A stretch of 64,000 nt of DNA from Glaucostegus cemiculus (Eukaryota). Under the pieces are notes generated by a model. The model saw only the letters and a list, made by a program, of their open reading frames with translations, made no database searches and had not been told where the DNA came from. The position numbers were made by a program, and so were the translations under genes. Each line of letters begins with the position of its first letter. Position 1 is the stretch's first letter. Positions 4,301 through 48,900 of this stretch are shown here, in pieces. The stretch covers positions 1,054,001 through 1,118,000 of the forward strand of contig CDPCPM010000436.1 in the NCBI GenBank assembly GCA_976551045.1, read 5' to 3'.

Positions 4301-5179
4301 GGCGTCAGGAAGCCCATTACCTGACGACGTTGCTCCACAGTCCCGGTCAAGTGTGGGGTATCTGCCCCGCCACCACTTAACTTTCTTTCCAAGACTGTGG
4401 CCTGGGAGAGTATTCCCAATATTCCCATCCGCCGCACATCGTGCCGGGAATCCGACCCTTCATATTAATACAAGTCACCTGTCAATGTCGTCGTAGAAAA
4501 TGAAGATTTAGTGCAGATTAAACAAAGATACGTTAATGGGAAATGCTGGTAAGAGAGTGGAGCGGGAAGAGACCAGTTAGTGCAGTTTCGCTCTGTTTTT
4601 TCCATCATCTCCTGTTCCGTCACTGGGCAGAGTGTCTTAGATATCCACAGAGCACATGGATATCCACAGAGCCTTTCCCACCTCTGAATGTCACAAACCG
4701 ACTTTGCACCGGTCAACAGTTTAAAGTGAAATGTTCGCAAATTCACGGACGGAGGAGTTCGAGACTTCGGGAGTTACTGAGGCAGCGCAGGGAACTGGTC
4801 TCAAAACGGACGAATAACTGGGCAGCACTGAGTCCAGGGAACTGGGGAATGCATTGGCCGAGTGTTATGGTAAGCTTCACATAGGGCTGGACGGATCTAG
4901 AATTCTCTGCCAAAGAAAACATTTAATTGCACGCGGTGACCGCACAGGACGTCGGACCAAAAGCCAGGAGGTAGAGTTAGTTTGGACGGTTATTGTTGAT
5001 CAACAGAATTGGCGCTTCCTGCACCACGTTTCACCCAACTGTCTCAATAATCGGTGGTTTGTGATAATGTCCGTGGAGGAGTTCCTTTCTCCGGAGTGCG
5101 GGTCAATGTGTGGTGCTGCTGACGGATTCCTCCAACTGATGATGTTTCCTCCCCCCTCCGCGCCCTCTCTCAAACAGAG

Positions 5180-5508
5180 GTAGCGAGTCCAGGAATCCTT
5201 CGGTTCTCCTGCTCCCTCCCTCACCGGACGAAACCGGCTCGGGCTCGGCCACTCTGTCCTACCTGGTAAGCGGCTTTATGCCGGACTTGGTCGCGCTGCG
5301 CTGGAGCGTGGATGGCGTAGAAAGAGAGAGCGGGGTGACGACAGGCGCAGTGTTCCCGGACACTGACCAGACCTACAGGCTGAGCAGTTACCTGCGGGTC
5401 CCCGCCGCTGCCTGGGACAAGGGCTCGAGCTCCTTCTGCAGCGTGACCCACAGCTCGCTGAGCTCGCCTCTGCGCAACACCATCTCTTCGTCCGCCTGTA
5501 CGCAGTGA
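5180..5508 (+). pseudogene. Ig light-chain constant exon, sigma-2/sigma-cart, copy 2 (open frame but first Cys->Tyr, no V-J upstream)
   Basis: Reads GSESRNPSVLLLPPSPDETGSGSATLSYLVSGFMPDLVALRWSVDG..SSYLRVPAAAWDKGSSSFCSVTHSSLSSPLRNTISSSACTQ*. B-strand TGC->TAC. Acceptor altered (caaacagag|gt). AATAAA at 5628-5633. Confidence 0.88.
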
Positions 5509-15561: not shown

Positions 15562-15746
15562 NNNNNNNNNNNNNNNNNNNNNNNNNNNNNNNNNNNNNNN
15601 NNNNNNNNNNNNNNNNNNNNNNNNNNNNNNNNNNNNNNNNNNNNNNNNNNNNNNNNNNNNNNNNNNNNNNNNNNNNNNNNNNNNNNNNNNNNNNNNNNNN
15701 NNNNNNNNNNNNNNNNNNNNNNNNNNNNNNNNNNNNNNNNNNNNNN
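15562..15746. other. Assembly gap (185 N)
   Basis: Run of n. Confidence 1.
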
Positions 15747-21892: not shown

Positions 21893-21935
21893 ATGAGCTG
21901 CTTCGCGGTCTTCGCTCTCTCCCACTTATTGCAAG
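21893..21935 (+). CDS. Gene A exon 1, leader MSCFAVFALSHLLQ
   Basis: 43-nt hydrophobic exon with G|gtgagt donor. Same length as the gene B leader. Confidence 0.82.
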
Positions 21936-27900: not shown

Positions 27901-29967
27901 GGTAATTTGTTTAGAACAAAAGGCAGAGTTTTCAGAACGAGAAGTGATATTGGGAAGGATTTCCAGAGCTCTGGCGAAGCTCGGTGAAACTGGAGGTGCA
28001 CAGTTCTTGACATCAACAACTTGCATTTATGTGTAAGCTGTTGGGCAGCTGGGCCACACTGGCCAGCGAATGGCAGGATGAGACCGATGGTAAATTTCTT
28101 TCAATGGAAATTTGTTTCTTTGTCCTTCAGACGACCTGCAGCGCACGGTCTGTCATATAATTTTCTTCAGTCTGGTGCCGACCCTCCTGCTCCTTATTCT
28201 GGGAACAACCGCTGTGGCCATCACTAAGGGCAGGAAGGAACGCCACCCAGGTAATGCGCCGGCCTTAAACTAATCGTGAAATGAAGCTCTCGCCAACTGG
28301 CGAATTCCCCTTTGAAGAGAAATTCACTTTTAAAATCTCCTTCAAGCAGGTAATCCAGAAACAGTAGGCACAAGCATTAACTCCCGGAGAAAGAATCTAG
28401 AACATGACGTAAGTATGAATAATCCGGGAAATCTGTCGTCATTCAAAAAGCCAAGGGCTATTCCGGTTGGGGCATAGTGAGGGGGGGGGGCGGGGTGGAA
28501 TAAGGAAGGATGAATGGCCTCCTTCTTGTTCAATTAGAAATGTGGCTGGAATCACGTGACTCATGATATTGATGAGAATCTTCCTTGCAGTAAATTAGAT
28601 ATCAGAATTTAATTTAACTGTTGGATACAATTTAAAGCGATTCACACTCAAGGGATTGCATTGTGCAGGATTCAAAGTCCTACAATAAACTATAGGAACG
28701 ACAAGAGACAGAATGTAACACGGAAGCTGAGTCCCACGCGATCTTCGGGAGAGCTTTAACTGAGGAGAGGACTGAGCCCAACCGCAGCAAACACGCCACG
28801 CTTGGTGTTAGGTCGAAATCAGGGGGTGACGGGAGGTCGCAGCTGAGGAATGCAGAGATATTAGAAAGTTGTGGAGCTGGGGAATAGTATAGAGAATTAG
28901 AGTGGGCAGGAAATGGAGGAGCTTATAGCGGCAGGGAAGGAGTTGGGAACTAGAAGGGAGTAACAGTTCGGCAAGGGTACAGAGGCTGGAGTGGGTTCCA
29001 CATATAGAAGGGTGTAAGGGCTGGAGGGGTTTACACAGATATGGAAGGGCAGCGAAGCCTGAAGAGGTGAGATGGGGAGAGATAAAGGGATTTGTGGAGA
29101 TACAAAGAGATCCGAAGGCTAGAGTATTCTATAGAGATATAAGGTCACAATCTCGGAGTTTCTTGAATATGGGTGCTGAAGAACCTTGCAGAGATAGGGA
29201 AAGGTGTTGGGGCCGGAGGGGGCTACACAGATGGGGAGGTGTAGGAGCTGGAGGAGTGTGTTACAGAGACGGGGAGGGATGTAAGGGCCGAAGGAGGTTA
29301 CACAGTTGAGGAGGGGTGTATAGAAAGGAGGGGCTTTCAAAATTAAGGAGGCGTGTAGGGGCCAGAGGGGGCTACTGAGATAGGGAAGGGGTAGGGGGCT
29401 GGAAGATTTTGCGGCGATAGGGAGGGTGTGGGGCTGGAGGGGTTACATAGATGGGAAATGTTTGGGGCTGGATGGGTTAATGAGATAGGGAAAGAGGAAG
29501 GGGCCGGAAGGCGTTGCAGGGATGGGGAGAACGTGGGAGCTGGCGTGGTTATAAGGATAGGGAGAGGTTTAGTCTCAGTTTATAGGGACACGAAGGGGTG
29601 TAGGGCTGGAAGATATTTCAGAGGCCGTAAGGTCTGCAGGGGCTGTAGGATGTTACTGAGGAATTGGCGCGTAGGGTTGTGTGAGACTGTAGAGTGCGGA
29701 GGCTGAAGAATGTCACCGTGATCGGGAGGGGACCACAGGGAGAGGGTCAGGGTCGGTTGTTGGTTGCAATCAGTGAGAGTGAAGCGGAATGAGACTCTTT
29801 CCCCGATAACGTCGTGTTCCTTTGACCTGGGATGAACGCGTTACGAAGGTCCCCTTTGTTGCCACCTGGTCCAATCTGACGGCGAGGGATGGTTTAGTGG
29901 GGATTTTAACCGTTCTCTTGTCGTTGGCTCACAGACCTACGCTCAGCTGGCGTTTGATAACAGCTGA
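21893..29967 (+). CDS. Gene A: non-rearranging VJ-C1-TM receptor with ITIM-like tail (290 aa). Exons 21893-21935, 22662-22988, 26045-26335, 28131-28250, 28350-28408, 29935-29967
   Basis: All introns GT-AG with matching phases (1,1,1,1,0). 873 nt in frame with no internal stop. AATAAA at 30146-30151. Confidence 0.85.
22662..22988 (+). CDS. Gene A exon 2, V-set domain with germline-fused J motif
   Basis: VTLNC..INWYKQ..RFSG..YMLVIENFQRNDSGIYFCADQLYSEFGNGSKLVVT. Splice sites ctcag| and |gtaac. Confidence 0.95.
23040..25900 (+). mobile_element. Stacked decayed CR1 fragments in the gene A V-C intron
   Basis: VTSGVLQGSVLG..FSKFADNTKI..NPDKCEVIHF. Includes a (gatagtgtg)n expansion at about 24920-24973. 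Confidence 0.88.
26045..26335 (+). CDS. Gene A exon 3, C1-set domain
   Basis: ADPPTIFLFAPP..VPLMCLVRG..LIRWNVSG..DGSYTVRSRFHISAETWRSGAVCTC. Phase-1 splice sites. Confidence 0.93.
26950..27210 (+). mobile_element. LINE-type 3' tail repeat (second copy at about 47330-47680)
   Basis: Shared cagtctacctcgt..ttgtct..ctgc..tgacaataataa sequence between the two loci. Confidence 0.6.
27480..27625 (-). mobile_element. tRNA-derived SINE (HE1/V-SINE-like) head, decayed
   Basis: ccacgtgatcacggggaatacctgcacacttcacatagac..ggtcgggatctaacccgggtcc is typical of a reversed SINE head. Confidence 0.55.
28131..28250 (+). CDS. Gene A exon 4, transmembrane
   Basis: DDLQRTVCHIIFFSLVPTLLLLILGTTAVAITKGRKERHP. Splice sites ttcag| and |gtaat. 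No charged residue in the TM core. Confidence 0.88.
28350..28408 (+). CDS. Gene A exon 5, cytoplasmic
   Basis: GNPETVGTSINSRRKNLEHD|gtaagt. 59 nt, the same size and phase as gene B exon 5. Confidence 0.75.
28850..29710 (+). repeat. Purine/G-rich degenerate minisatellite (gggctggaggaggttacagagatagggaagggtgta-like)
   Basis: Repeated gggctgga..acagagatagggaa units with strong strand bias. Confidence 0.8.
29935..29967 (+). CDS. Gene A exon 6, TYAQLAFDNS* (ITIM-like)
   Basis: Acceptor cacag|ACC TAC. The YxxLxF pattern is shared with genes B and C. PolyA signal lies 180 bp downstream. Confidence 0.72.
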   Translation, partial: TYAQLAFDNS

Positions 29968-30189
29968 TATGGAAAGGCAGCGCGAAGGAACCTTCAGAAC
30001 TCTCCATCCAAAGCCTCGCCCAGAGCTTCCTCTGTAACAGACCATGTGCGGTGGTACTGAGGACCTGTGATTAATCTGCAGCTCCCTGTTTGATTGTATG
30101 CTGTTTGTTGCAATTACACCACAGCTTTGTCATAATTACTGCTTCAATAAATTCTTATGTGACATGAAATATCGAATCTATTCTTTGTT

Positions 30190-30700
30190 CTCTAAAAACC
30201 GAGATGGCGGCGAGTCGTTTCTCTCTCATTGTGGGACAGTTGGTCGCACATTCACCGCTAGGGCCAGAGATCCTGAATTCTCACTCCAGGCCCTGAGACG
30301 TTCCCAATGGAAATACAGAAGGACCCCCTCCCACCCCCTCTGACGGACTGAGGGAGGGGCACCACTAAGGCAGCGCCGTGCTTCCGAGGGGATAGGATTG
30401 AGTCAGGTTGAGTCAGGTTGAAACGTGCTGCAGAATTAACTGGATTTGGACTGATCCGAGGGATTGTATTTGACACCAGAAGGTGTGAAAATTGACCTTC
30501 AGTGATGAAGGAGTGAATCAGCCCCAGTTTCAGGGAGGGGCCGAGCGCGCTGACGGCTGGAAGCCGCCCGGCCGGTGACCGGAGCTCCTGGTGTCAAACG
30601 CACGGAGTCGCCCCACTCTTATTGGAGGCGGGTTCCGGGATCCGTGCGCAGGCGCAGCACCGGCTGGCCGAGAATCCCAACAACCTTGGCGCTTGATGTG
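30190..30700. promoter_or_regulatory. CpG-rich promoter-like segment (YY1-like, CCAAT, GC box, NRF1-like)
   Basis: gagatggcggc at about 30200, attgg at 30621, ggaggcggg at 30624, TGCGCAGGCGCA at 30645-30656. Confidence 0.4.
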
Positions 30701-33099
30701 GGAAATGCTTTACTGATGCTGAGGCCTTGTGTTGAGCGCTGCCTGCGATGGTCAGTTATTGACGGACTGGTTCTGTTACCCGCCAAGTGGTTCACACTAA
30801 TGAGTCGGAGGCATGGCCCAAACACAGTCGTGAATTTACAGCCAGTTAGTTAAACACACCCGCCGATTCGTTCACACACACACAAACTTCTCTCTCGTTT
30901 GCCTTACCCAGCCTGGACTTTCAACAGACTCAGATAGGGGTTCAGCAATGATAGTGGACAAGGCTCGATGGGCCGAATGGGCTGCTCAGGTTCTTGTCGT
31001 GATAATTAATCCCGATGAGAGATAAGACTCAGATCCTGATAATGTCTAGAAAGTACTGGTTTCTCGAGGAATCTTGAAACCCATTGAGTAGAAGTGATTT
31101 ATGGCTATTTCCATCGAGGTATTGAAGGTGATTGAAGGAGGTGCTAGGGTGCAGAACTTCCTGTGGTGGGGAGAGAAGGAGTCCAGAACAAGGGGCAAGA
31201 ATTTCCAATCGGAGTCAGGAGGTTGAAGGATGATGTCAGGACGCACTTAGTGACGCAATGGGTGGGAAGAAAGCTGGTCTTTTCTCTCCCCTTTCTCCTC
31301 CAATAAAACGTTGTCGGTGTTGGGTGGAGTCAACAGGAAATCCAGTGCAGACGTTGTTGGGTGTTTGTTGTGTCTGGGTATTAAGGAATATGGGATCAGA
31401 GCGGGTAAATAGACGGTACCCACGATGTAAGTGAATAGCGAACAGGGACTGAATTGCCTCTCACTCTCCTCTCGGATTTTTTTTATATTCTGGGAGTTGG
31501 GGAGAGTGGGCGCAAGCTGGGGTTTGACGAGCGCTCGGCAGTTGTACCATTCAATGTGGGTCGCAAGAGAGCGGTGCAGAGCCCTACTGGCATTTCCGGT
31601 TGCTGCATTCTGTGCAGGCATCCTACAAAACACCGGATGTCAGCGGCAAACAAAGAATCTTAAAATTGTAAATGTGAAGTGGCAGTTAAACATTAACAGA
31701 GTGCATTCAGAACATAGGCTATGGAGACTGAAGATAACATGCAAATAAATCCTTACAGAACTACCATCTAGGCTAGTTTTTTTTCCTGGATTGGCTGATT
31801 TCCCACATTTGCCATAACAATTGGACCACAAACTTTCACACTGCACAGAAACATTGCAACGGAACGAGGACTTTCCGCTCTCTTATTCAACGTTAAATTA
31901 GATGGCGGCTGATATTGGGGGAGGGCGCGGATGTAGGAAGGAGTGTCGGGATGAAGGAAGTTACAGATACAGGGAGGGTTGAGCTGGGGAGGATTTCAGT
32001 GGGAGGAGGACCGGAGGAGACCCCAGAAACTGTAGCAGGGAAATGTCGGGGAGAAGGTGGGTGAAGGGGTAGACGTGCGTAAGGTACCTCATGAAGAAAT
32101 CTTAGCACAATGCTAAGATTTATTAGAAAAATTAAATTCGAGAGGTTCGACTGTCGTTCAGCAAGGTCAGAACTGGAGAGAGGCGAACATCTTGTGAGAT
32201 AGAGCGCTCACTTCAGTGTTTACGTTACCTGTTCCTCCTCCTTGTTGGTCTTAAGCGACCAGTGTGGAATGAGCCGGCACACTAGCCCGGGACTGCGGGT
32301 GCACGGGAGCGAATGCATGGCCTCATTCTGAGTTGTTAGGCTCTGATTTTATTTTCTGACGTAGAACCTTCCACCTGAAACCCTAGATTTTCACATGTGC
32401 CGTCTGACCAGTCGTGTTTGCACAATTTTCGGTTTTTAAATGATATTTCCAGAAACTAGATTTTTCAAATCTATAGTTCCATTGTTCCATTGAAGTTATG
32501 AATTGGGTATGCGCTGCGGGGGTTATTTTACATTATGCGTCACGGAACAAACGTTAACCTAACGCTGGTTCCACGTCTCTGATCTAAAAGTGTTGCAGGG
32601 GGCTGAACAATTGAGAAATTCAACAGAGAAAAACAACAAGAGACATTCCTCTTCGTCACAGATCGGATGGAATGTCGGGATGAGAGAAGTGGAATCGGTC
32701 GATGCACTACCCCTGACCACTGTTACTTTCATTTTTTTAATCGCAAGATCCTGTACTTTGAATGGAGTTAAAAAGGAACACAGTAAACATCTAATGCGCA
32801 TCACAGTTTCTCTCTGCTGACTTTACGTAATTTGTAAAACATATTTGGACATAATTTTGAGCACTCGATTTGACCAAGTTACGGCCGTTTGATTTTGCAT
32901 GGTGCCAGGCCGCGATATAACACAATTGATCTGGATTGTGTGTGAATATTTGACTACTCGGATGACGAGCGGTACTTGGATCACAGTAAGTATCAATTTA
33001 AAAGCTGTATCCCGCCTCTATAGACTGTAAACCCATCGGCGTTGCGTTAGGGTGAAGAAAAAGAGTGAAAGTTCAATGCGCGTGTTCTACATGTCATCG

Positions 33100-34535
33100 C
33101 GGGGGAGAAACAGAAATGCTCTTGGAAACGACGGCGAACCACAAGTCTGGAGTGAATGATGAAAAGATCATTAGCACAAAGAAATGTTGTTGATGAGATT
33201 GACAAGGACGAAGGTGTTAAATATCCGGGATTTGTTAATTTGTTTCTGAGGATTTTGAAAAAGGTGGCTCCGGATGTAGTGAATGTAATTGTCATCTTCA
33301 TAAACGCTATAAACATTAGGACGTTTCTCACAGATTGAAAGATAGTAAATGTAACCCCATCATTGAAGAAAGCAGAGAAAAAAAAATAAACGTAGACTCA
33401 TTAGCCGAATATCAATGGCAGGGAAAATCTACTATGAAGGAACATAACGACTGGAATGGACAACGTCATTATGGATTTGTCAAAGAGAAATATGTTTGGC
33501 AAATCTATTAGTGTATTTGGATCTTGCAACTCTCAGTAGAGGTAAAGGCGAACCAGTTGCTGTGTTTGGACTTTCTGAAACCATTTGGGAAATACCACAC
33601 GAGGTTATTGAATTTAATGTGATATATTGGCTTGGGCTCAAGATTTGGTAACGGAAATAAACAGATCATTTTAAATTTAGTGTGAAAACATATATAGGTA
33701 CAATTAGATACAGTTTCTCAGATATGTTCAGGAAAGGTTCCTTAATCAATATATTGAGGTACCAACGAGAGAGAGCGTAATACTGGATCTCCTCTTAGGT
33801 AATGACAGAGCAGGTGACAGAACTGTGTATAGGTGAACCTCTTGGATCCAGTGATTATGATTCAATTAGTTTCAAGATAATCGTGGAGAAGGGTGGGACT
33901 GGTCCTAAGGGTGAGATTCTAAATTGGAATAAGGCTAAATTTGATGACATCAGAAAGGATCTGGTAGGCATGGATTGGGATAGGCTGTTTTCCGGTCGAG
34001 ATGCTTGGTAAGTGCGAGACTTTCAAACGTGAGATATTGAGAAGACAGAATCTGTATGTTTCTGTTAGAATACAGGTTTCAAAGAATATCGAAGCACTGG
34101 TAAAGAAAAGAAGGGTGGCACATATCAAGTATAGGCAGTTAGGATCAAATGAGGCACTTGAGGAGTATAAGAAATGAAAGATAATAGTTAAATAAGACAC
34201 CAGGAAGGCTAAATGAGGATAAGTTGCTCTGGCAGACAAGGTGAAAGAGAATCCCGAGGGGTTATATAGCTACATTAAGTGAAAAATGGTAGCAAGGTAC
34301 AAACTTGGTCCTCTTGAAGATCAGCGTGGTCATCCATATATGGAACCGAAAAAGATAGGAGAGATCTTAAATGATTTTTTTTTGCATTCTATTTACTCTC
34401 GAAACAGGCACAGACTATAGGACTGAGCTACATGAGTAGTGAGGTCACAGACCGTATCTGGATTACGGAAGAGGAGGTGCTGGTTGTCTTAAGGCAAATG
34501 AAGGTGGATAAATCTCACAGAGCCTGACAAGATTG
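33100..34535 (+). mobile_element. Two decayed CR1 ORF2 fragments
   Basis: EPLGSSDYDSISFKII..LNWNKAKFDDIR, plus RT-like remnants at 33150-33680. Confidence 0.82.
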
Positions 34536-34740
34536 CAGTTACAAGCTAAGTGCAGTGCAGGGAGACAAATAAAGTGCAGGGGCCACACGGCTGAGAGAAG
34601 CAGTAGAAAGGGACTCGACACCACCTGTTTCTTGCCCACGGTTTAAGCAGCCTGGTCCGCTCAGCGCTTTCCACCCGTGTTCAGTGCCATCTATCACAGA
34701 TCGCCCTTTGCAGTTAGACGCACTCACTCCTGTTTAAGGT

Positions 34741-34850
34741 GTAAACAGGAAGCCCGCAGCGCGAATCGGCAGGGCGCGGGACTTTCCAAAGAGCTATCTT
34801 TATACGCGGGGCCTAATTTCGGCAGCTGCCCTGCATTTCACTTCTCTTCA
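34741..34850 (+). promoter_or_regulatory. Gene B promoter: GTAAACAGGAAGCCCGCAGCGCG, perfect NF-kB site GGGACTTTCC (34778-34787), IRF/ETS-like tttcacttc
   Basis: Motifs read directly, about 60-164 bp upstream of the ATG at 34905. Confidence 0.65.
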
Positions 34851-35373
34851 GAGCCCACCGATATCCGGGCAACATTTCAGTGCACAATTCCAGCCACAGC
34901 GACCATGAGCTTCTTAACGGCCTGTGTCCTGATTCACCTCTTCCCAGGTTAGTCTTTACCTGCTTCAAATTCGGGGCGCAATTCTGGCGCCAGATCATTG
35001 AAGTGATAAGTTTAGGGGAAGAAGGTACCAGGTGAATTCATCCCGTGACAAACAGAGCATACCTTGTTCCAAAATTACCGGAACTTCGGATGGGTCCTTA
35101 CAAGGACCCTTTCTGGTGCCCATAAAACATCTCACGTCCACTTTTGGAAGGAGGACAGAGGATTTACCCGGATTCCGCGGCTCTCAGTTATCCATGGATC
35201 AAGATCATTAAAATATTACCCAAATGATTATTGCATTCCTGATTTTTTTCAGGATCTTTCTCTGCTAATATTGAAGGCTGCATATTCTATCGCAGTGACT
35301 TCAATTTACCATTCAGTGGCTACAAAGATCACCTCTATTAACTGTCTCTGTTTGAATCAGTTTGTCTGTCTGA

Positions 35374-35377
<4 letters not shown>

Positions 35378-35417
<40 letters not shown>

Positions 35418-35455
35418 ATCTATGCTATCTATCTACCTACCTATCTATCTGTCTG
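35378..35455. repeat. (TC)n/(TCTA)n microsatellite
   Basis: Visible directly in the sequence. Confidence 0.9.
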
Positions 35456-37434
35456 CCTGCCTCTCCATCTATCTTTATCTTTCTCCCATTCTTGCTTCAA
35501 TTAAATCTTGAAGATTTATGTCCCAATGGACATCAGGAATCCTAATCATTTACTGACAGGATGGTGCATCGAGCGGCAGAGCCCGCTCTATATTTTTCTT
35601 ATAATAGATTTGCTGGACTTTCACCCGAACAAACTTTCTAATGAATTCCTTCCCTTCGCAGTTGTTGGCCCCCAGGACGTTTACCCCGCGACTCCGTCGG
35701 CTCAGGACCGTTCCGTTGGAAGTACCTTTAAGGTGCATTGCCACACGGGCTGGTTACCAAGTGGAAAGATTTTCTGGTACAAACGGCAGCACCGAGAGCA
35801 TTTGCAGTAACTTCACTCTGTGATGGAGTAGAACCCTCCCGTCGGAAGACTATCGGGGCAAGTTAACGATGAATCCAGTATTTATTCCCTGATTGTTAAT
35901 GATGTCCAGAGAAATGATTCGGGGTGGTATTACTGTTCAGCCAAAGAATTTAGCGGATTGCCCTTCGTGTCCGGAAACGGCTCCAAACTGATCATTGCAG
36001 GTTAGCATCAGGTTAATTACATTCATTTGCTCACAAATTCCCGAATATATACTGAACTGTAATTGCACTACCGACTCCCATTCCCGCCAGGGTCTCCGCA
36101 CGTTTGTCTCTTAACTCCGGCTGCGGGTGGAATCCGTGGGATGAAAGCGGTTCGGTTGATGTGTTTGGCGCAAAACGCGGCCGCCGATTCCCAGTCCATA
36201 CGTTGAGAAGGTTCGGGACGGGATGTCGAAGGACGGACGTATTCCTGAACAATCGGCTGTGACGGGACGCAAAGTGTCAGGAGTCAGTTCGACGTCCAGG
36301 AGGAAGGAACACTATGAGCCCAAAGTAGACTGATAGACTATGATAAGATTATTAAAAGTTGAATAGCAGGGGAAAATAAAGCGTTGGTGGACCGGTATTC
36401 TTAGGATTAACGATAGGTGCAATGCTGCTTTCCAGAGTTAGCTGAACCCTTGAAATCAATACTTGATCATAATCTGAATGTGGACAGAGTTGTGTAATGG
36501 ACTGAATTTGTGCTAATATTCCGGGCACCAGCGATTTCTCCCGTGCCTTACAATTGGATGGTTTCATTGATCAGCGCTCCCATACTTTCAGTGCGACGTT
36601 GTGTTTCTCCTGTCATGTCTATCTGTCTATATAATTTATACATCTCTCTATCTGCCCGAATGTTTCTCCCTCTCCCTCTGTCTTCGATAGATATTTAATT
36701 CTTTCGGAATTATTTATCATTTATATTCGGGATCTGGGCGACACTATAATCTGCCACCAATCTTCTCCCCTGGGCAATCTTCTTGTGAATATGTTGGTAG
36801 AACCTGAAACTATGGGATAGAGATTATTAAACATATAAAAATGAATGGATCTTTTCTTGCAGATGATTCGCCGCAACAGGTTTGCTTTTCCCTGCTTTAT
36901 GTGGGTTTTCCGGTGGTGATTATCCTTCTGGCGACCGTAATGGTCGCCGTGGGAAGAAGATTCAGAAACGGGCAGTCAGGCACCGAGGTCATTCTTACTT
37001 CCCAAGACTCTTTGTTGTGTGTTGTTGTCTGTTTCTGGGTCAGTTCAGAGCGACATTTAAAGCCAACGTTTAGTTTAAATCTCTTTCCATCTCAGGCAGC
37101 AAGAACGGCGCTGTGCCCTTTGCAAACGTGAGACCTCGGGCAGCAGGAAATGAAGTAGAAATATTTTAGTCTTTATTTTTTTAGTTTTTGTTTACTTAAA
37201 ACAGAACCGTACGCTGCAGGAAACTTGCAAATGCTTCGGTCCACGATGTTGTGCCGAACCAATTAACCTAGTGGTTAAACGCCTACCAACTAGTCCCTTG
37301 TGCCTACGCGTCCACATCCCTCCATTCTGTGCATATTCACGCGCCTATCTGTTTATTTTAAGAATCGATTAAACGTTCCGAATGAGATGGTGCAAATCTT
37401 TCCTCTGCGTCTGGGCATTCGAAGTTAGTGATTG

Positions 37435-38500
37435 CAAATATAGTCCCAGAGCTATACAGCGCAGAAACAGGCTCTTCGGCCCAACTCGTCCATGCCGACC
37501 AAGATGCCATCCTGAACTAGTCCCATTTGCCTGCATTTGGCCAATGATCCTGGAAACCTTTCATATTAATGTTCCTGTCCAAGTATCGTTTGAACGTTGT
37601 AACTGTACTCGCCTCTACCACTTCATCTGGCAGCTCGCTCCATACGCCCACCCCAGCCCCCATTGAAAAAATACCCCTGACATCCCCATGGAATCTCTCT
37701 CCTCTGACCTTAAACCTGTGGCCTAGTGTTTTACACTTCCTGTCCTGGGAAAAAGGCGCGGCAGTCCACTATCTATGCCAATCACAATGCTATAAACCTC
37801 CGTAAGACCACCCCTCAGTCACATGAGCTCCAGGGAAGACAATTCCAGCAGATTCGGTGTCTCCATACAAATGAAGTCCTAACAGTCCCGATTATATTCT
37901 TGCGGACCATTTCTACACTCTCTCCAGCTTAATCACATCATTTTCATGGTATGTGACGAGAACTGCACACAATATTTCACGTACAGTCTCACCAACGTCT
38001 TGTACAGCTGTAACATGACGTCGTAACTATGGCATTCACCACCTTGTTTCCTTGTGTCGTCACTTTCAGAGAACTATGTATTTGCAGGGCCGTGTCATTT
38101 AATATGTATATTCTATCGTGGTTTAAGTTCCCAAATGCGTAATTTTACTCGTCTGAGTTAAACTTCATCCACCATTCCTTGGCCTTTGCCTATTTTCCCA
38201 GTTGATTTAGATCGTGTTGAAATCTCAGACTACCTTCTTCACTGTCCACCACACCACCAATCTTGGTGTCATTCGCAACCTTACGAATCCTGCCAGCTAC
38301 ATTAATATCTAAATCGTCGATATATATGACAGACCACAGTAGATCCAACACCGGTGGCAGCGGCACACCGCTGGTCACAGGCCTCCGGTCTGAACAAGAG
38401 ACATCCACTACCACCCTCTGACACCTTCCACCAAGAAAATTATGTAGCCAGTTGACCAGCTCACTGGATCACCTACGATTTCACCTTCCAGATAGTCCAT
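37435..38500 (-). mobile_element. CR1 3' portion
   Basis: RPVTSGVP..IYIDDLD..KVANDTKIGGVVDSEE plus a 3' UTR. Confidence 0.85.
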
Positions 38501-38944
38501 CATGCAATAACTGCAGAATGATATTTCACGACAGGCATGGAGGGTTAAACGACGAGGACACTTGTTGAATAGCTTTGCAGAAAGTTTAAAGACCATTTTA
38601 ATTGAGCAGCTTTAAATTCATAATAAAAATGACCGAGTGGCTGGAGTGAAACCATTTCCTCTGGCGGTCTAAATGCAGAGTAACATCGGAGTCCGGCCCG
38701 CCGGCGCGAAGACAAACAATATGTCCTTACACAAAGGGTGGGGGACGTCTTCAACCCTGACTACCAACAAGTTGAGGTTGGAGTCTGTTAGTAATATTAA
38801 AGCTGAGGACAATCGGTTGGTTTATTTTTCAATCAATGTAAAATACTGCAGATGTTGGAAATCTGAAATAAAAGCAACAGATTCTGGGAATCCACAGCAG
38901 GCCAGCGAGTACGGAGGGAGACTGTAACAGGGTTAAAGTTTCTA

Positions 38945-40100
38945 GGAGATACGAACATGCAAATCGGGAGTAGGAGTCGGCCACTCGGCCCGCTGGAGCC
39001 TGCTCCGTCACTAAACAATTTCATGGCTGATCGGATTGCAACGTCAGCTCCACCTCACGCTTAACTTTTACCCCTTGCTTAACAAGAACCTCTCTACTCA
39101 AAGGCTCCGCTTCCGGCTTTGAGGAAGAGAGTTCCAAAGACAGAGAAATTCTCCTCATCTCTGACTTAAACGTGCGATTTATGTTGTTTAACAGTGAATC
39201 CTCGTTCTCCATTCTCCCACAAGAAGAAGCATCAGCTTCACCTCTAACTTGTCAAGAACACTCAGGATCTTGTTATATAAATCAGGTCTTCCTTCATTTA
39301 TCTAAACTGCAAAGGATACACCCTAGCCTGTCCCAACCTTCTTAAGAGAATACACTCATTCCAGGTATTTGTCTCTTTACCCCGTTAACGCTTGCTGCGG
39401 ATGTGATCTCCGCAATGCCTCTTCTAACAGAAACGTAACCTCCCATCTTTTACCTTCTATTCCCAGCGCACTTTGTCACTTTTACACTTCCTACCCGGTG
39501 GTGCTGTCTCGTTCTCGGTTATTCCGTTATTGTCACTTTACTATTTTTGCACTGAGATTGCACCACTGCCTTTGTTTTACGCTAATCGTTGTATGTATTG
39601 TTGCATTTACTTTTTGTATATTTGATGCGAACAGGGAATTTCATTGCACCCTGGTGTGTGCGATAATAAACTCATCCAGTCTAATATCACTTGAGATTCC
39701 CCAAATATTTGCAGTATTTATGTACTAACACCATACAACCATGCACCAGCGCATGCAGATCCAATTGTACCCCAGAGTTCCGCAATCTCTCACCATTTAC
39801 CTCATCAGCTTCTTTGTTATATTTTCTGCCTAAATGGTCATTTTCACTTTTTCCCACAATACAGTCCATTTGCTAGTGATTTACCCATCTGTTTAATACA
39901 CCTATATCCCTTTTAGCCTTCTAATGTCCCCTTCACAAGTTAATTTTGCACCCATCTTTATGTCGTAAATTACGGTGAATTTGTCCGTCATTTATATCAA
40001 TTGTAAAATGTTGAGGTTCCAAGACCAATTCCCGTGACACTGCAGGTTTTACATTTTGCGAATCAGAAGAAGACCAATTTCTTCCCACTGTCAACCAGCA
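38945..40100 (-). mobile_element. Decayed CR1 3' fragments with an interrupting insert
   Basis: 3' tail near 38950 and NGERLRNSGVQLDL remnants. Confidence 0.65.
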
Positions 40101-42887
40101 GGGTACTCGCTGAACAAAATCTGAGTCTCGTACCTACCGACTCCTTCACTATTCGGTCTTTGATTCTCATTGCACAGTAACAGGTTTAGTCTCCGATTGG
40201 CTGCAGAATGCGCTATTCTGCGACACTATGCTGAAAACACTTTCCGAACTCTTGATCCAAACTCAAGTTTCCTCAACTTCAGTAATTCCTCTCCCATGCA
40301 CTATGACCACCATGTCCCATATTTTCCCTGCTTCCTGACTTGAGTCACCGAAACGCATCCTGAGGACTCCTTCTGAAATCTATTAACCAGTTAAGCGAAT
40401 GCTCATGACGTAATTTGACCAGAGTCAGTGTTATCTAAATGCTCAGAATTTAGTAGTATTGTGGAAGGTTGATGGGACGAATGGCTTCCTTCTGTCCCCA
40501 CGATCCCCTGACGATTCTTTCGGTTTTCTCTCGCAGTCAATTTATGATAATCTGACATTTAATCTGGGCCCGACGGAGAGACGGCAAGCGGAAGCGAGGA
40601 TGCCTGCACAGTAGAAGGTTTGCAATCGGGAAATGCTGTCAGTGATAAATCCAGCCACACGTTGCTGACTGTCTGCGGCTTCCCGGTAACGGTGGCGACA
40701 ATCTGCTACAGATGAGATGTATGTCCTTCTTGGTGCCTACGAACATACGTCAGCTTCCTTAGGGTAAGCAAATTCAAAGGCACCCAGAAAAGAAATTACC
40801 AACCCTGATAATTGAACCAGCTACTGGGGAGCCTCGACTCGTGACATCTCTAAAGCAATTTCTCCTAATTGTTGGAAACCACACCCCAAAGGGAATAACT
40901 AATCCCTTTTTACAGCCGTGGGTTATTACGTTCTGCTCTTTTTTCCTGATTTATCACTTCCTGGAGATGAAGTTACGATTTACTTAAACTGATACTCCTA
41001 ATTTCCCTTTATATTTCTGTAGGGAAATTGGGCTTGATACAATTCAAGAATATTAACAATGCATCAGTTGCAACATACAATTAAAGAGATTTAAAAACTG
41101 GAGCGTTGAGTATTTTCGATTCCAAATGTTGCATGGTTGATCCAGCTGCAATTGAGCAAAAGCTCAGGACACATTTACAGCTCAAAGTTATTTGGTTAGA
41201 AGTCGGAAAAGTGATTAACTGGCTAGATCTGAATCTGACCATGTTCAATGTGCACCGGTAGTTGATATCCTGTAAACCCCGTGTTCCCAGAACCGCGTTC
41301 ACACTGTTCAAACAGAAGGCCTTCTTTTATGGAAAAGGTCCCTTAAATCCCGTGAAGAATTGAACAGACTGATATTGTCGCTGAAAGTTTTAGCGCAGGG
41401 TGTTCAGACCGGCCATGTGCAATGGATAATGGAAACTTAAAGACTGAGTTAATCAGATCCTTACTATGTTCAAAAGGAGTTGAGGTGAATTGACGAAGAG
41501 AACGATGAGATGACGAGGTGGTGGGGAGTCCAGAACGAGGAGTGGAGAGGGTGGTGGGTGAGGTGTAGGCGAGAGGGAGATAATAGTGGGGCGAGGTGAT
41601 GGAAGCCGTTTGAAACCACCACATTTAATGGACCACACTGAGGCGAGTTTGTGGGTATTTCGTCTTCTTGGAGTCAAATACTTACAGAATGACATCGCAA
41701 TTGGCAAGAAACACAAAGAACCCAGTCCGATTATCCGTCAGGCGACACGCTGCTTTAGATCTAAATCTGTTTGCCAGAGACTTATGCTAAGCGTGGGATG
41801 ATCACTAGATCATCTATTCCCCAAACTCTTCGCGACGTTGTTTCCCTTGAGCCGACGCTCCAACTGGTGGCGGTGGGCAGTCTGGACCAGTATCAGGTGA
41901 GCACCAGAAGGGGAAGGTATGGGGAAGTCCATAGGGGTGAGGCAGCTTTACTAAGATGACATGGTTACACCATGAGCGTGAGGAGGCCATTCGGACTGCT
42001 CCATCGATCTCCCGCATTCTTTAATATCCATTGATAATAAACATTACTCAGCAGCAGATTTTAAAGTGCCGACTATACCAACATTAATTGCTGTTTGTAC
42101 TAGAGTGTTCTACATTTCTCCTAGTCTGCGAGAACAAAGAATTCCCAAACTTCATTCCTGAAACCCTGGCTCTGCCTCTTGTAGATCCAGACCTACGTTT
42201 ACCGCCATCAGCTTCTTTCTAACTGCCCTCTCACTTCTCTTTGACATATTGAATATCAATTAAAGCCCTCGTTACCCTCCTAACTGAAGTGTTATTCAGG
42301 ATGTTAAAGGGAACCGAAGGGGCTCATGGAAATTTTAAGACCAGTTTGAGGGAAGTTCCTGTTAAATTAACCAAGATATTATTATGGGAACACTCTGCAC
42401 TCCCTCCAAGGCCAATGACTCCTTGGTAAGGTACGCCCCAGAAGCACTACAAACGCTCCAGGGGTTGGCCAGCCAGCGGTTTCTACATCTGTAGCCTAAC
42501 TTGTAACCCCTGGTAGAAATGACCCTGAAGTTGAACATTCATTAATGCAATACCGCCTTCTTTTAATATATTACAAAATATTTAATTTATACAAAGGAAA
42601 CATCAAAATGTTACTACTAAAGGAAGCTCGGAAATCAAACGGAAAGATTCAAAGAATTGCGCAAACTATGCAAAAAGTCTCTGGCCTTCGCTTAAGGCTT
42701 GGAGCATGCCTAACTCGTGTTATTAGTATCAGTCCCACACGGATTTGTTTCATTTACATAATAAAGGACCCGTACAGATCCTGTTAATCCCGGAGTGTCA
42801 CGTGGTGATTCGTTCAGCGGGATTCAGTGTGACCACAGGTTCGATCCATTTGTTCATCATCCACCGAGGTAGAAACCAACCAGTTTC

Positions 42888-42944
42888 TCATCTGCGGGCA
42901 GAGGAGGAAGCCGCGAATTCGAGAGAGGCGTAAAGGATCGGCGC
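42888..42944 (-). CDS. Gene C exon 6, APILYASLEFAASSSARR* (canonical ITIM ILYASL)
   Basis: Acceptor ttccctcag|GCG. Fits IxYxxL. Confidence 0.8.
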   Translation of the reverse strand, partial: APILYASLEFAASSSARR

Positions 42945-45900
42945 CTGAGGGAATGAACATCAAACACTGGCAATTAAAGATATCGCACTCCACACCCTCC
43001 CATTCTTCAACAGATTCACTACTGTGCTGACCTTCCACTGCGAGTCACCTCCTTAAAATACTCCAGCAGATTAGTCAAATAGGGCTTTCGTTTCAGAAAT
43101 CCATGCTGACTCCGTTCAGGTTCTTTATTCTTTAATATCCAATCCCAAACATTAAACTTGTGAATATTACAACGGGGATCATTGAGCGTACGTACCTGAG
43201 TCGCAGTGCTTTGTTCTTGCCTTCTCTCCGTTTGACGACGGTTCCCTGCGTATTAGCAGTTAAGAGCATGAATTGAAAATATTATTTGGTCTGACTAATT
43301 TATAATTAGTTACAGAGATGTCCGAGATGCTTCAAAAGTCAGCAATCGCACATATGAAAGTAGTCTCCAATATACCAGTAGTCGGTCTACGCCAATACTT
43401 TCCAATTATTTCACATACACCAATGCCCCTCAGGTGCGTTATTACTTCCTTCTCTATTGCCCAATATGCCATTGGCCCCCAACATGACAATAGTTCCCTA
43501 ATACACGAACGATCTTGCCATGAACCCCGATAGATCAATGAAAGCGTAATACTCCAAGGCTTCCCAAGATCCTAATGTCTAAATCGACCGGGAATTCTTC
43601 CGCGCACACTGGATGGGTTCTTGAAACAGTATGTGGAAAGTCCATCTGGAGCAGAGAACATTCTGGACTTGGTTTTGGGAAATGTGCCAAGACCTGATCA
43701 TGGATGAACATTTTGGGAATAGTGACCAACACTCATTATGTTTTAAGATAGTTGAGAGTAAGAATAAATTCGTATCTTGCTGGAAGTTACTAAATTGGGG
43801 GAGGGCAAATTAAGACAGGATAAGACAGGAGCTAAAAGGGTGTTGATTGGTAGCAGCTGCTGTCTGACAAGTCCACGTCTGAGATGAGAGAGTTGTTTAA
43901 TGACAAGCTGATCAGAGGTCCGGATGGGCATGCTCCATTAAGGACTAAGGACAAGGATGGTGAGTTAAGGGAACCTTGGATGACCTGAGAGCTCTTAAAT
44001 TTAGCCAGAAAGAAAATGGAATCATACGTAAGGTTCAAGGAGCTGGCCCTTAAAGACAGCAGGGGAGTGCTCAAGTTGGCAACTGGAAAGGCCAAAAGGG
44101 GTCATGAAATGTCCTCAGCGAGCAGGATCAAGGGTAATCCCAAGACATTTTAAACATTCTGCGATAAAGAGGATAACTCAGGAGAGGGTAGGGATAAATC
44201 AAGGACAAAGGAGAGTGTTTGTGCTTGCAGTCAGAGAACGCGGCTGAGGTACTAAATGAGTATTTTGTGTCCGTATTTACCGAGGAAAAGAATTTGGACG
44301 ATGGTGAAGGCATACTAATGTGCTGGGACAATTTGAGATTAAGGAGAACGTAATGCTGGGTCTTTTGAAAATCATTGAGATCGACAAGTCCCAAGGGCCT
44401 ACAACATATATCCCAGAATATTGAAGGAAGCAAGCCAGGAGATTACTGGAGCTATGTCAAAGATCTTCCTGTTCTCACTAGCAACGGGAGAGGTTCCAGA
44501 AGACCGGAGAGTAGCCACTGTTGAGCTTTTGTTCAAGACGCGAAATAGGGATAATCCAAGTAACTATCGGCCAGTGAGCCTCACGTCAGTGGTAGGGAAG
44601 CTGTTGGAGAGGATATTGAACGATAGTATTTATGTACATTTGAAAAGGCACGGCCTGCTTCGGGACAGTGAGCATGGCTTTGGGTGGGCCAAGTCATGCT
44701 TTACAAACTTCATTCGAATTTTTGGAAAGGTGACACAGGAGTCTGATGAGGGTAAGGCAGTAGACGGTAGCTACATGGACTTTAGGTAAGGAATTTGGGA
44801 AGGTCCCTCACGATAGGTTGATTTAGAAAATAAAGATACATGGGATCCCGGGTGAATTGCAAGTTTGGATTCAGATCTGGCTTGCCATCTAAGACAGTGA
44901 GTGGGGTGGAGGGGTGTTATTCTGGCTGGAGGTCCGTGCCCAGTGGTGTTCCACAAGGATCGGTGCAGGGACCTCTGTTGTTTAGGATATATATCAATGA
45001 TTTAGATGAAAACGTAGATGGGCGAATTAACAAGTTTGCAGATGACACCAAGATCGGTGGAGTTGTGGACAACGTAAAGGACTATCAAACAATACAGCAA
45101 GATATAGATCTGTTACAGATATGGCAGACAATTTATTCCAGGCAAATGGAAGGTCAAATGAAAGGAAAAAGTACACAGTTAATAGTCGGCCCCGTAAAAG
45201 TAATGAGGTACAGAGGGATCTTGGAGTCTAGGTCCATAGTTTACTGTTCTATGGTTCTATGGTTTACTGAAAGTGGCTACACAAGTGGATAAGATGGTAA
45301 AGCAGGCGTATGGCATGTTTGCCTTCATTGGAAGGGGTGTTGATTCTGAGTAGTAAAGTTATACTGTAGCTATATACAACTTATATATAACATACATGGA
45401 GTATTCTGTGCAGTTCTGGTCGCCCCTTATAAGAAAGATGTTAAGACAGTGGAAAGGGTGCACAAGAGATTTACCAGGATACTGGCAAGATTGGAGGGTA
45501 TGAACTATAAGGAGAGCTTGGACAAACTTGGTTGTTCTCCTTAGAGCACCGGAGGCCGGGGGGAGACCTGGCAAAGTATTTTTTTTTAATTGTAAGAGGT
45601 ATTGATAGGGAAGACAGTCAGAGTCTTTTCCCCAGGGTAGAAATTTCAAACACCAAAGGACATGTTTTTAAGGTTAGGGGCAGGATGTTTAAGAAGACGC
45701 AAGGGTCATGTTTTGTAAGCAGAGAGCGGTGGGTGCCTGGAATGGGTTACCAAGGGTAGTAACGGAAGCAGGCAGTTTGGTGGAGTTTAAGAGGCTTTCA
45801 CGTAGACACATGAATATAAAGGGAATAGAGGAATAAGGATGATACACAGGAGAAGGTCATGAAGCATACATTGTCATCAAGATCGGCGCAACATCCGGGC

Positions 45901-48900
45901 CGAATGGCCTGTCCAATACTATACTGTTAGATCTTCCTACTACACCCGCCCTACTCGACCCATTAATTTTTGAGCCAGGGTTGCTCTGATCGCCCAAATA
46001 TTATTTTACGCACAGAGGTGGAAAACACGTTTGCTGGAACTTCAGACATCGCACCCCTCATTTCCCAGCGCTCCCTGGCTTCAACTGATTTCACCCAACT
46101 CCCCGCCCAAACTCTTTCCAGCATCCTCCATTCTGAACCATTGACAGTAATTAGGCCTCTAGACCGGGATAGGGGACGTCGATATCTGTTGATGGCTATT
46201 AGGAGAGGTCTGGGAAAGACGAACCCTCACCTGATCCACGGATTATGCAGATCGAAACGGAAATGAGGATAAGCAGGAACACCAGGATCCCAGAGGCGAA
46301 CAGTGTTGCAGGAGGACACCAGTCTGTAGAAACAGAATTGTTGTTCGGTAAAATTATACATTAAAGGAACTTCTTGTTCAGAAGTTTGATTTGGTTGAAC
46401 CATCGAACCATAGAACCATAGAACAATAAAGCACAAAACAGGCCCTTCTGCCCACCAAGTTGTGCCATCCTTCAAACGTCTCACAATCAAACTCTTTCCT
46501 CCCACATAGCCTACTATTCCACATTCTTCCATGCGCCTATCCAACAATCTCTTGAACTTGTCCAACGTATCTGCCTCTACTACCAACCAAGGCAGCGCAT
46601 TCCATGCGCCAACCACTCTCTGGGTGAAAAACATCTCTCTGACATCTCCCCTAAACTTTCCACCCAATATCTTAAAGCCATGCCCTCTCGTCTTGAGCAT
46701 CTGCGCTCTGGGAAAGAGGCGCTGGCTGTCATGTCTGGTTGTAATGTGAAGAATTTTAAAAATATATCCTAATCCTAAAGAGCTAAAAGAAGTAAATAAA
46801 CACAAGTTTGCCAAGAGTAAATGTCAGTCAAGATTTCAATGTCCTCTTCACAAATACCAAATGACCCATCCACATTGTGACACTATTCAAGCAACAGCCT
46901 GACATTGTCGTGTCGATACAATAAATCCTACAGGTAAACTTCCAAACTTCCAATTCAATCCCCAGCTTGTCCTCTCCCACCGTCATGGACATGGTGGCGT
47001 AGGGCTACATAGGTTGTACCACGGCACACATGAGTAATGCAAATTGATTCTGGACCCGATTGTATCGGGTTAAATATGGATATGTGAACCTCCTTATTAC
47101 CATCTATCGCATTTCCCCAGTTAAAGAAGCAACGTGTTCCCACATGCAAGGGACGCACACTGTAATCTCAGTGGGAAGTCGAATCGCCATCCCCAGGGAT
47201 GTCCTGGTGGTATGACCTTAGATGGGTCCCGAGGAACATAACTGCCAAACTATCTTTGGAACATTTACTGAATAAACTACCAGAAAGGATAAATCTCTTT
47301 ATCACCAATCTACCTAAAGCAGACACGTTTATTCATAATAACACTGGTACGATTCCGTCTTCTCCACCCTCCCATCGGGAAGATACAAAAGCCTCCACCC
47401 TCCCATCGGAGACAGATTCTATCCCGCTGTTATAAGACTAATACATGGTCCCTTAGTACGACAAAATGGACTATTGATCTCACAGTCTACCTCGTTATGG
47501 CCTTGCGCCTGATTGTCTGCCTGCTCTGAACAGTCTCTGCAACTCTAACACTTTACTCTCCAATCTGCATTGTTTTCCCTTATACTACGTGTTGCAATGA
47601 AATTACCTGTGTGGATGGCATACAAAACAAAATCTTTCACTGTACCTCGGTACATGTGACAATAATAAACCAATTTACCAAGTGATTCTTGTACGGTGCT
47701 GTGCGAGGTCAGATGAAGGACACAGTCAATCGTGTTGTGTGGCAGTGAAATCGTGCTGAATGGGATACTCAGGATGAACCTGGCATCTCCGGAGTATCCA
47801 CGAAGTTCTCTATAGCATCGGCAGGAAGAGAGGTGTACATCACCACAATCAGTAACTTCACTTTCTGGGATGTCTCTCATCGTACCATTAGTGTTAAGTC
47901 AAGGATTGGACTTTCGTCAATGAGGAGTACAGAAAGGCATGCCGGGAGCACCGCCAGGGAGAGCTAAACATTAGGTACTAACACATGAGCGCAACAGCGA
48001 AAGCAGCATGCATTAGACAGAGATAAGCGAGCTCACAGCCAACAGATCAGATCCAACTCTGCAGTTATATTAACATCCCATCGTGAATGGCGGTGGGCAG
48101 ATAAATTATCAAATGAAGTAGAGGCTCCAAAAGTATCTTCATCCTCAGCCATAGCAGAATGCAGCATTGAGAGCTAAAGGCATGGCTGAGGTGTTCGCGG
48201 TCATGTTCTGACAAGCAGATTGCCCATTTAGTGTTCCTGCCATTCCCATCACAACAAAAGCAAACTTGCAGCCAAATTATTGAGCCCATGTGATATGAAT
48301 AACCGGCGGAGTCCCCTGGATATTGCAAAGGCGTTGGGGCCAGTGAACATCTGAGATGCAGAACTGAAGACCTGGACTTCATCTCTAACCAAACTGCTCC
48401 AGTACAGTCGCAACACTGGCACTTCCCGACAATGTGACCTCTGTCCAGGTATGAAATGTAAAATAAAAGCAGGCCTCTGCTCCCACTCTGTGCCAGATCC
48501 CGACAGCCCCCAATCGTCTGATCTTTGAAAACGTTATCTCCCTCTACTTTAAACACTTTAATGAGCTGCTCTCCACAACTCTCTGGGGCAGAGAATTCCG
48601 GATATTTACCACCGGTTACCAAAAGGAGCGTCTATGTAACTCAGTTTTAAATAACTGGTGCTTATTTTGAAACTCGGAGCCCTTGTTCGAGACTCTCCCA
48701 TCAGTGAAAGCGTTTTGAAATCTCATGTTTCAGTAAAAATCAGCTCTTATTCTTCGAAGCTTCTAAGAATACAGAACCAACCTGTTTACCCTCTCCTGAT
48801 AGGACAATCCCCTCACTCTAGGGTGAATCTCTTTTGGGCTATCTAGAATTTCTTTCAGTATTTGCATTGCCATTCAACAAGGAGAAGAACATGGAGAACC

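What the first reader, a model, noticed from the sequence alone, without database searches (positions are those of the whole stretch)
28131..46323. Two subtypes, tail-to-tail, each with a juxtamembrane Cys: possible disulfide-linked heterodimer
Seen: A and B form one subtype (43-nt leader, QRNDSG, GNGSKL, DD..VC TM exon, 59-nt exon 5). C is a distinct subtype on the opposite strand, convergent with them. All carry a Cys just before the TM (TVC, QVC, DWC). Known: TCR chains and CD8 dimerise through a membrane-proximal Cys, and the J diglycine bulge supports V-V pairing. Inference: A and C could form an invariant TCR-like inhibitory heterodimer.
Basis: inference. Interest (0 to 1): 0.7.

Follow-up and report, generated by a model that had tools for sequence, protein, structure and literature searches.

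The report
Ray's non-rearranging two-chain receptor array
A ray-like fish genome carries twelve copies of a three-gene block for antibody-shaped surface receptors that need no DNA rearrangement; two of the chain types are predicted to pair like the two chains of a T-cell receptor into varied, probably inhibitory receptors, while the middle gene in this window is broken.

Summary
A, B and C are single-exon VJ–C1–transmembrane genes of a ray. A (290 aa) and C (301 aa) are open; B is a pseudogene with four stops. A and B are two old lineages (40% identical), not one subtype, and C lacks the J diglycine. The A-B-C block occurs 12 times on one contig, between germline-joined light-chain genes, and the copies differ mostly in CDR-like loops, so the receptor is not invariant. 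An A/C heterodimer is supported, not shown: stingray orthologs scored 0.80 against a best control of 0.08 in a Fab-like model with both stalk cysteines in the interface, but Fab/TCR likeness can give such a pass and homodimers were not modelled. Against strict covalent pairing, 3 of 10 open A copies lack the Cys. Relatives run from sharks to birds; the family is probably PRARP (chicken; paper not held, homo/heterodimers recalled). The scan noted this family before in other genomes. No expression data.

The parts
21893..21935 (+). Gene A exon 1, leader (43 nt)
   Evidence: matches sawfish ortholog P0001 N-terminus
22662..22988 (+). Gene A exon 2, single-exon VJ domain with FGNG J-like strand
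   Evidence: Pfam V-set 54.7 bits; AG/GT sites
26045..26335 (+). Gene A exon 3, C1-set domain
   Evidence: Pfam C1-set 31.6 bits, cut-off 21
28131..28250 (+). Gene A exon 4, short stalk with Cys (28151-28153) and uncharged TM helix
28350..28408 (+). Gene A exon 5, cytoplasmic (59 nt)
   Evidence: same frame as P0001 tail
29935..29967 (+). Gene A exon 6, tyrosine motif (D)TYAQL and stop
   Evidence: orthologs read DTYAQL/DIYAQL/EIYAQL
34905..40614 (+). Gene B, pseudogene: leader 34905-34947, VJ 35662-36000 (stops 35808, 35829), truncated C1 from 36091 (stops 36204, 36246), TM from 36863 (Cys 36883-36885), exon 5 37096-37154, last exon 40537-40614
   Evidence: lineage of Mobula P0028 and skate P0039
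51857..51911 (-). Gene C exon 1, leader (55 nt)
   Evidence: orthologs P0017, P0023
50890..51219 (-). Gene C exon 2, single-exon VJ domain; J-like strand LVKGPTL lacks the first Gly; extra Cys pair in the C'-D region
   Evidence: Pfam V-set 36.5 bits
50486..50806 (-). Gene C exon 3, C1-set domain
   Evidence: Pfam C1-set 27.5 bits
46231..46323 (-). Gene C exon 4, stalk Cys (46318-46316) and uncharged TM helix
43196..43245 (-). Gene C exon 5, cytoplasmic (50 nt)
42888..42944 (-). Gene C exon 6, canonical ITIM ILYASL and stop
   Evidence: same motif in P0017, P0023, P0111
5143..5505 (+). Light-chain-type C exon (first Cys replaced by Tyr), part of the IgL genes that lie between the triads
   Evidence: Pfam C1-set 64.5 bits; 26 matches on the contig

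Best explanation
A and C encode germline, never-rearranged VJ-C1 membrane chains that likely pair side by side like a Fab or T-cell receptor, are predicted to be locked by their stalk cysteines, and would act as a multi-copy, probably inhibitory receptor family rather than one invariant receptor. Shown: gene structures, open frames, Cys, motifs, 12 triads, loop-biased differences among copies, wide conservation. Predicted: V-V contact through the C, C', F, G strands and C1-C1 contact through the A, B, D, E strands. Inferred: the disulfide; signalling by phosphatase recruitment to the ITIM of C (with the A tyrosine as a second, non-canonical site); no adaptor coupling because the TM helices of the window's A and C carry no charged residue; B-type chains, where intact, may replace A as partner of C. 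The family is probably the elasmobranch form of PRARP.
For: Complex model of stingray orthologs (69% identical to window A and C): score 0.80 versus best control 0.08; the mark was reached by 51 of 78 solved complexes and 2 of 108 mismatched pairs (eukaryotes: 39 of 65 solved pairs without a like complex, 2 of 126 unrelated pairs); runs agree in at least 85% of contacts, partner pLDDT at least 81; Cys228 and Cys234 are both among the confident interface residues. V position 44 is Leu/Met/Ile in 16 of 16 shark and ray A/B-clade database rows and Pro in 5 of 7 C-clade database rows, the heavy/light-type asymmetry of Fv interfaces (textbook knowledge). Stalk Cys in 31 of 31 relatives with a TM and 12 of 12 own C copies. 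A-type and C-type genes have neighbouring RefSeq numbers in Hypanus (LOC132399641/642) and Narcine (XP_069792498/500) and share a contig in Mobula. C1 is the most conserved part among copies (dN/dS 0.34 in A, 0.21 in C). Variable sites: 18 of 28 loop versus 17 of 74 framework codons in A, 20 of 36 versus 17 of 72 in C.
Against: Fabs and TCRs are solved in thousands and are the nearest structures, so the model pass may come from likeness; the tool says a pass does not tell which family member binds, and A/A, C/C, B/C and A/IgL were not modelled. The model used stingray orthologs, not the window's proteins. 3 of 10 open A copies (one duplicated lineage) have Trp for the Cys. C lacks the GxG bulge in 12 of 12 copies. 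Linkage and 1:1 copy number follow from block duplication alone. A's motif has Asp at Y-2, outside the ITIM consensus; 3 of 12 C copies stop before the ITIM. Loop pN/pS is only 1.25 (A) and 0.91 (C), copies are related, and I drew the loop limits after seeing the variability plot. No expression or co-expression data.
Confidence: 0.55

Rival explanations
1. A, B and C are separate receptors that work as disulfide-linked homodimers or monomers; they sit together only because they arose by old tandem duplication and were copied as a block.
For: Each chain has its own Cys and its own tyrosine motif; other non-rearranging VJ-C1 proteins of sharks (UrIg, UrIg2) are disulfide-linked homodimers with non-Fv V pairing (PMC12227049); C lacks GxG; A lost the Cys in one lineage while its C neighbours kept it.
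Against: A/C model passes with a full Fab-like interface; complementary Leu/Pro44; linkage of both types kept in several species.
Confidence: 0.25
2. Pairing is promiscuous: homo- and heterodimers (A/A, C/C, A/C, B/C) and monomers coexist, with the Cys stabilising whichever forms.
For: I recall that recombinant chicken PRARP chains gave monomers, homodimers and heterodimers (recalled from the abstract of Fu et al. 2019; paper not held). One open B copy remains and B is intact in Mobula and skate.
Against: Rests on recall and on bird proteins whose C1 is degenerate; interface asymmetry at position 44 suggests a preferred hetero pair.
Confidence: 0.15
3. The array is mostly passenger DNA amplified with the neighbouring germline-joined light-chain genes, and most copies are decaying.
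For: 11 of 12 B copies broken, 3 of 13 A copies broken or partial, 3 of 12 C copies truncated; IgL genes lie in the same repeat unit.
Against: 10 of 13 A and 9 of 12 C copies keep full frames and splice sites although the two arms are only about 78% identical in DNA; C1 dN/dS 0.21-0.34.
Confidence: 0.05

Closest known systems
[quoted passage not shown] 2019, PMID 30770416). Only the title and two mentions were seen; the rest is recalled.
   Same: Non-rearranging VJ-joined IgSF genes as a pair; recalled: V-C1 layout outside birds, ITIM/ITSM-like tails, disulfide-linked homo- or heterodimers, orthologs in bony fish, amphibians, reptiles, birds. Relatives found here have that spread.
   Different: Three lineages instead of two, amplified to 12 triads with loop-biased differences and interleaved with light-chain genes; no sequence labelled PRARP was found, so identity is not tested directly.
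UrIg / UrIg2 (PMC12227049, parts 1-4 of 8 read)
   Same: Elasmobranch non-rearranging single-exon VJ followed by C1 domains, split leader, disulfide-linked dimers.
   Different: UrIg has three C1 domains and is secreted, UrIg2 nine or more; both are homodimers and map to the MHC or the IgH/TCR complex. A and C have one C1, a TM and tyrosine motifs.
T-cell receptor chains / Ig Fab
   Same: V-C1-stalk Cys-TM layout; predicted V-V and C1-C1 interface; nearest solved structures are antibody chains at about 20-24% identity.
   Different: No V/J split and no RSS in the array; no charged TM residue for CD3; long tails with tyrosine motifs.
CD8, SIRP, NITR, NKp30 (joined-VJ receptors named in PMC11599192)
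   Same: Joined VJ domain; CD8 dimerises through a stalk Cys; SIRP and NITR carry ITIMs (own knowledge).
   Different: CD8 and NKp30 have no C1; SIRP-alpha has two C1 domains; NITR has an I-set second domain (own knowledge).

Membership tests
PRARP | Single-exon VJ-joined V domain, no rearrangement | tested here: met
   no RSS match inside the array in the fetched DNA
PRARP | V-C1-TM layout outside birds (recalled) | tested here: met
   Pfam V-set and C1-set above cut-off for A and C
PRARP | Canonical J-like FGxG segment (recalled) | tested here: inconclusive
   met in A (9 of 10 open copies) and B; not met in C (0 of 12)
PRARP | Cytoplasmic ITIM/ITSM-like motif (recalled) | tested here: met
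   C ILYASL canonical in form; A DTYAQL non-canonical; shark relatives TLYAHL, turtle TEYAAV
PRARP | Sequence orthology to chicken PRARP1/2 | not testable with these tools
   no hit named PRARP and no Gallus row among the 120 listed; bird relatives (ostrich, pelican, crane, owl) exist and group with the turtle proteins
PRARP | Shared synteny with the chicken locus | tested here: inconclusive
   flanks hold NCU-G1 (GLMP), a CCT subunit, an LRR-Ig and a Sema gene, human 1q21-22-type neighbours by recall; the paper's own synteny could not be read; PMC10751288 speaks of PRARP among 'VJ genes in the MHC'
PRARP | Disulfide-linked homo/heterodimer on cells, lymphocyte expression (recalled) | not testable with these tools
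   only a structure model; needs bench work
T-cell receptor chain | V(D)J segments with RSS | tested here: not met
   VJ in one exon; RSS scan
T-cell receptor chain | Charged TM residues for CD3 and short tail | tested here: not met
   no K/R/D/E in the TM core of window A or C; 30-40 aa tails with Tyr motifs
UrIg/UrIg2 | Three or more C1 domains after VJ | tested here: not met
   one C1 exon per gene
CD8 | V domain on a long stalk without C1 | tested here: not met
   C1 exon present

The most novel reading that the evidence does not exclude
Rays keep a living, RAG-independent two-chain receptor repertoire: A (or B) and C chains with a heavy/light-type V interface mix between copies (6 distinct Cys-bearing A V domains by 8 ITIM-bearing C V domains here, up to about 48 binding sites), and the system is co-amplified with germline-joined sigma-2 light-chain genes, a working model of the heterodimeric receptor that existed before the RAG transposon split the V exon.
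Probability: 0.2. Interest if true: 0.8.

Novelty: new variant of a known kind. Interest (0 to 1): 0.5.

Why it matters
The search for the gene that the RAG transposon invaded has centred on homodimeric relics such as UrIg/UrIg2. A non-rearranging pair with a Fab-like hetero-interface would show that two-chain V-V recognition can exist without rearrangement. The ray array gives many natural variants (Cys-less A, ITIM-less C, one intact B) with which pairing rules and ligands can be tested directly. Databases label these genes as antibody or TCR chains, which confuses repertoire annotation in sharks and rays.

Tried and rejected
RNA evidence: no RNA holder listed for window 26045-29967; no evidence either way. 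Papers not held: Fu 2019, Ohta 2019, UrIg 2023; their supplements were not seen either and may bear on whether shark or ray PRARP genes are already described. Paper searches for a description of this array found nothing specific. Aph-1 as a synteny marker, suggested by a mislabelled lizard hit: it lies on other contigs. ESM Atlas gave only generic V/C1 clusters. No look-alike windows among earlier notes by place. Rejected: TCR, CD8 and UrIg membership; rearranging gene (no RSS); assembly artefact (triads differ: about 78% between arms, 88-99% within; the closest pair at 99.3% could still be a haplotype copy); positive selection (not shown, pN/pS near 1 in loops); A and B as one subtype. Arg at the centre of the C1 E strand in both A and C gave no charge argument for hetero over homo pairing.
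Full report
Gene anatomy. Reading the window gives three six-exon genes: leader, one exon for a joined VJ domain, one C1 exon, a stalk/TM exon and two cytoplasmic exons. A (+, 21893-29967) is open for 290 aa, C (-, 51911-42888) for 301 aa, with AG/GT sites and matching phases. Pfam places V-set and C1-set domains in both above the curated cut-offs. Database gene models of a sawfish and stingrays reproduce these exon joins. B (+, 34905-40614) has two stops in V, two in C1 and lacks the 3' half of C1: a pseudogene. The nearest named relative is from Pristis pectinata (81% over V), so the genome is of a ray.

Check of the observation. The 43-nt leaders, QRNDSG, GNGSKL, DD....VC, 59-nt exon 5, opposite strand of C and the three Cys are as described. 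Three points fail. A and B are only 40% identical when A is compared with the one open B copy, and the tree puts B with Mobula, skate and shark proteins in a supported clade (99/94) apart from A (50 rows, midpoint root, drawn only for grouping). C has no diglycine (12 of 12 copies LVKG). And the locus is not a lone trio.

The array. Genome searches and exon mapping on 860,815 fetched bases of the 1,381,866-base contig show 12 full A-B-C triads in six inverted pairs plus a partial thirteenth A, between about 248 and 1,185 kb. The two arms are about 78% identical, same-arm copies 88-99%. A: 10 of 13 open; 7 of these 10 keep the stalk Cys, 3 have Trp. C: 12 of 12 keep the Cys; 9 reach the ITIM, 3 stop just before it, and these are the same three triads whose A lacks the Cys, one event copied twice. 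Four C copies have lost the first V acceptor but keep an in-frame one 6 nt on. B: 1 of 12 reads open in all exons. Among copies V is 73-100% (A) and 78-100% (C) identical; dN/dS is 0.78 and 0.52 in V against 0.34 and 0.21 in C1. Variable sites are enriched in CDR-like loops (18 of 28 against 17 of 74; 20 of 36 against 17 of 72), with loop limits drawn by me after seeing the data and no proof of positive selection. 'Invariant' therefore fails.

Neighbours. A light-chain-type C exon matches 26 times on this contig, between the triads and right of them; 7 V exons found in the fetched DNA are VJ-joined types, 5 of them open through J, and the RSS scan gave one loose match outside the array. PMC12227049 lists XP_051901911 as Pristis IgL sigma-2, the number next to the Pristis A ortholog XP_051901910; from this I infer the isotype and a shared linkage. 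A review passage says sigma-2 genes can be joined or split by species (PMC4279169). Of 126 flank ORF pieces scanned (chosen from 1,615 candidates), 9 had Pfam hits, among them Cpn60_TCP1, NCU-G1, an LRR-Ig protein and Sema; that these correspond to human 1q21-22 is recalled.

Relatives. Searches gave 14 of 162 candidates for the A V domain and 3 of 94 for C, all elasmobranch; the profile search and look-ups of 20 of its hits added sharks, lungfish, coelacanth, sturgeon, bichir, caecilian and turtle; a turtle-based profile gave 130 hits, 120 listed, from turtles, crocodilians, lizards, birds and two sharks, none named PRARP and none mammalian. C groups with a lungfish protein (94/83, below the starred level). 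The stalk Cys and a terminal tyrosine motif are kept across the family.

Do A and C pair? One complex job was run on the ectodomains of the neighbouring Hypanus A- and C-type proteins, each 69% identical to the window's chain. Score 0.80, best of three controls 0.08; the mark was reached by 51 of 78 solved complexes and 2 of 108 mismatched pairs, on eukaryotes by 39 of 65 and 2 of 126; runs agree in at least 85% of contacts, partner pLDDT at least 81. The interface is Fab-like in both V and C1, and both stalk Cys are in it. Since antibody chains are the nearest solved structures (single-chain model of C mean pLDDT 69.9), the pass may come from likeness, and it cannot rank A/C above homodimers. 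Sequence support is the Leu/Met/Ile (A, B) versus Pro (C) at V position 44, whose meaning for Fv pairing is textbook knowledge. Against: the Cys-less A lineage, no GxG in C, linkage explained by block duplication, and homodimeric UrIg/UrIg2 as a precedent for non-Fv pairing (PMC12227049).

Mechanism, most likely. A- (or B-) and C-type chains assemble through C1-C1 and V-V faces (predicted), are joined by the stalk disulfide (inferred), bind an unknown ligand with two germline V domains, and signal through the ITIM of C by phosphatase recruitment (inferred from motif and from uncharged TM helices). Copy number supplies limited diversity; whether chains mix between triads is untested.

Relation to what is known. 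The layout and species range fit PRARP (Fu et al. 2019), of which I saw only the title and two mentions (PMC10751288 passages; PMC11599192 passage); the homo/heterodimer result is recalled. Membership could not be tested by sequence. Searches of the held library found no description of this ray array, but the two key J Immunol papers are not held. Earlier AI notes of this scan describe the same family, and the light-chain linkage, in other cartilaginous fish; they came after my reading was formed and are not independent evidence.

Verdict. Real genes, observation partly confirmed, heterodimer plausible (0.55) but unshown, not invariant, probably a multi-copy ray variant of a known but little-studied family. 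Interest 0.5.

Noticed in passing
G000:C436 triads at 309-342 kb, 640-673 kb and 965-1,000 kb: In the same three triads A has Trp for the stalk Cys and C stops just before its ITIM: a possible non-covalent or decoy pair, or a decaying lineage; one event copied twice.
   Followed up: partly
G000:C436:1141735-1148762 (-): The only B copy of 12 whose exons all read open; tail motif STYASL.
   Followed up: partly
window 1016-1318 and 5143-5505; 26 matches on C436: Light-chain C exons, several broken (the first has a stop, the second lacks its first Cys); nearby V exons on the contig are VJ-joined, probably sigma-2. No V exon was found for the two window copies.
   Followed up: partly
G000:C436 C copies at 454, 615, 790, 937 kb: First acceptor of the V exon reads AT instead of AG; an in-frame AG lies 6 nt downstream.
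   Followed up: partly
G000:C436 C copy at 937 kb: Arg inside the TM helix and a changed motif (ILYPSL); its neighbour A is a pseudogene. Could be drift or a step towards an activating form.
   Followed up: no
window 26045-26335 and 50486-50806: Both C1 domains carry a second Cys two residues before the canonical F-strand Cys, kept in most relatives; probably buried.
   Followed up: no
database proteins P0120, P0130, P0132, P0140, P0145, P0148, P0166: A separate clade of VJ-C1-TM proteins (two named ones are lungfish) next to a coelacanth protein; some lack the stalk Cys.
   Followed up: no
window 24593-25087, 38193-38468, 43600-45800: Broken reverse-transcriptase-like (CR1-type by recall) pieces in introns and between genes; not scanned against a family library.
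   Followed up: no
window 15562-15746: 185 N.
   Followed up: no
L091:9268-9999, L109:695-1519: A rhodopsin-family GPCR piece and an apolipoprotein-like repeat left of the array.
   Followed up: no
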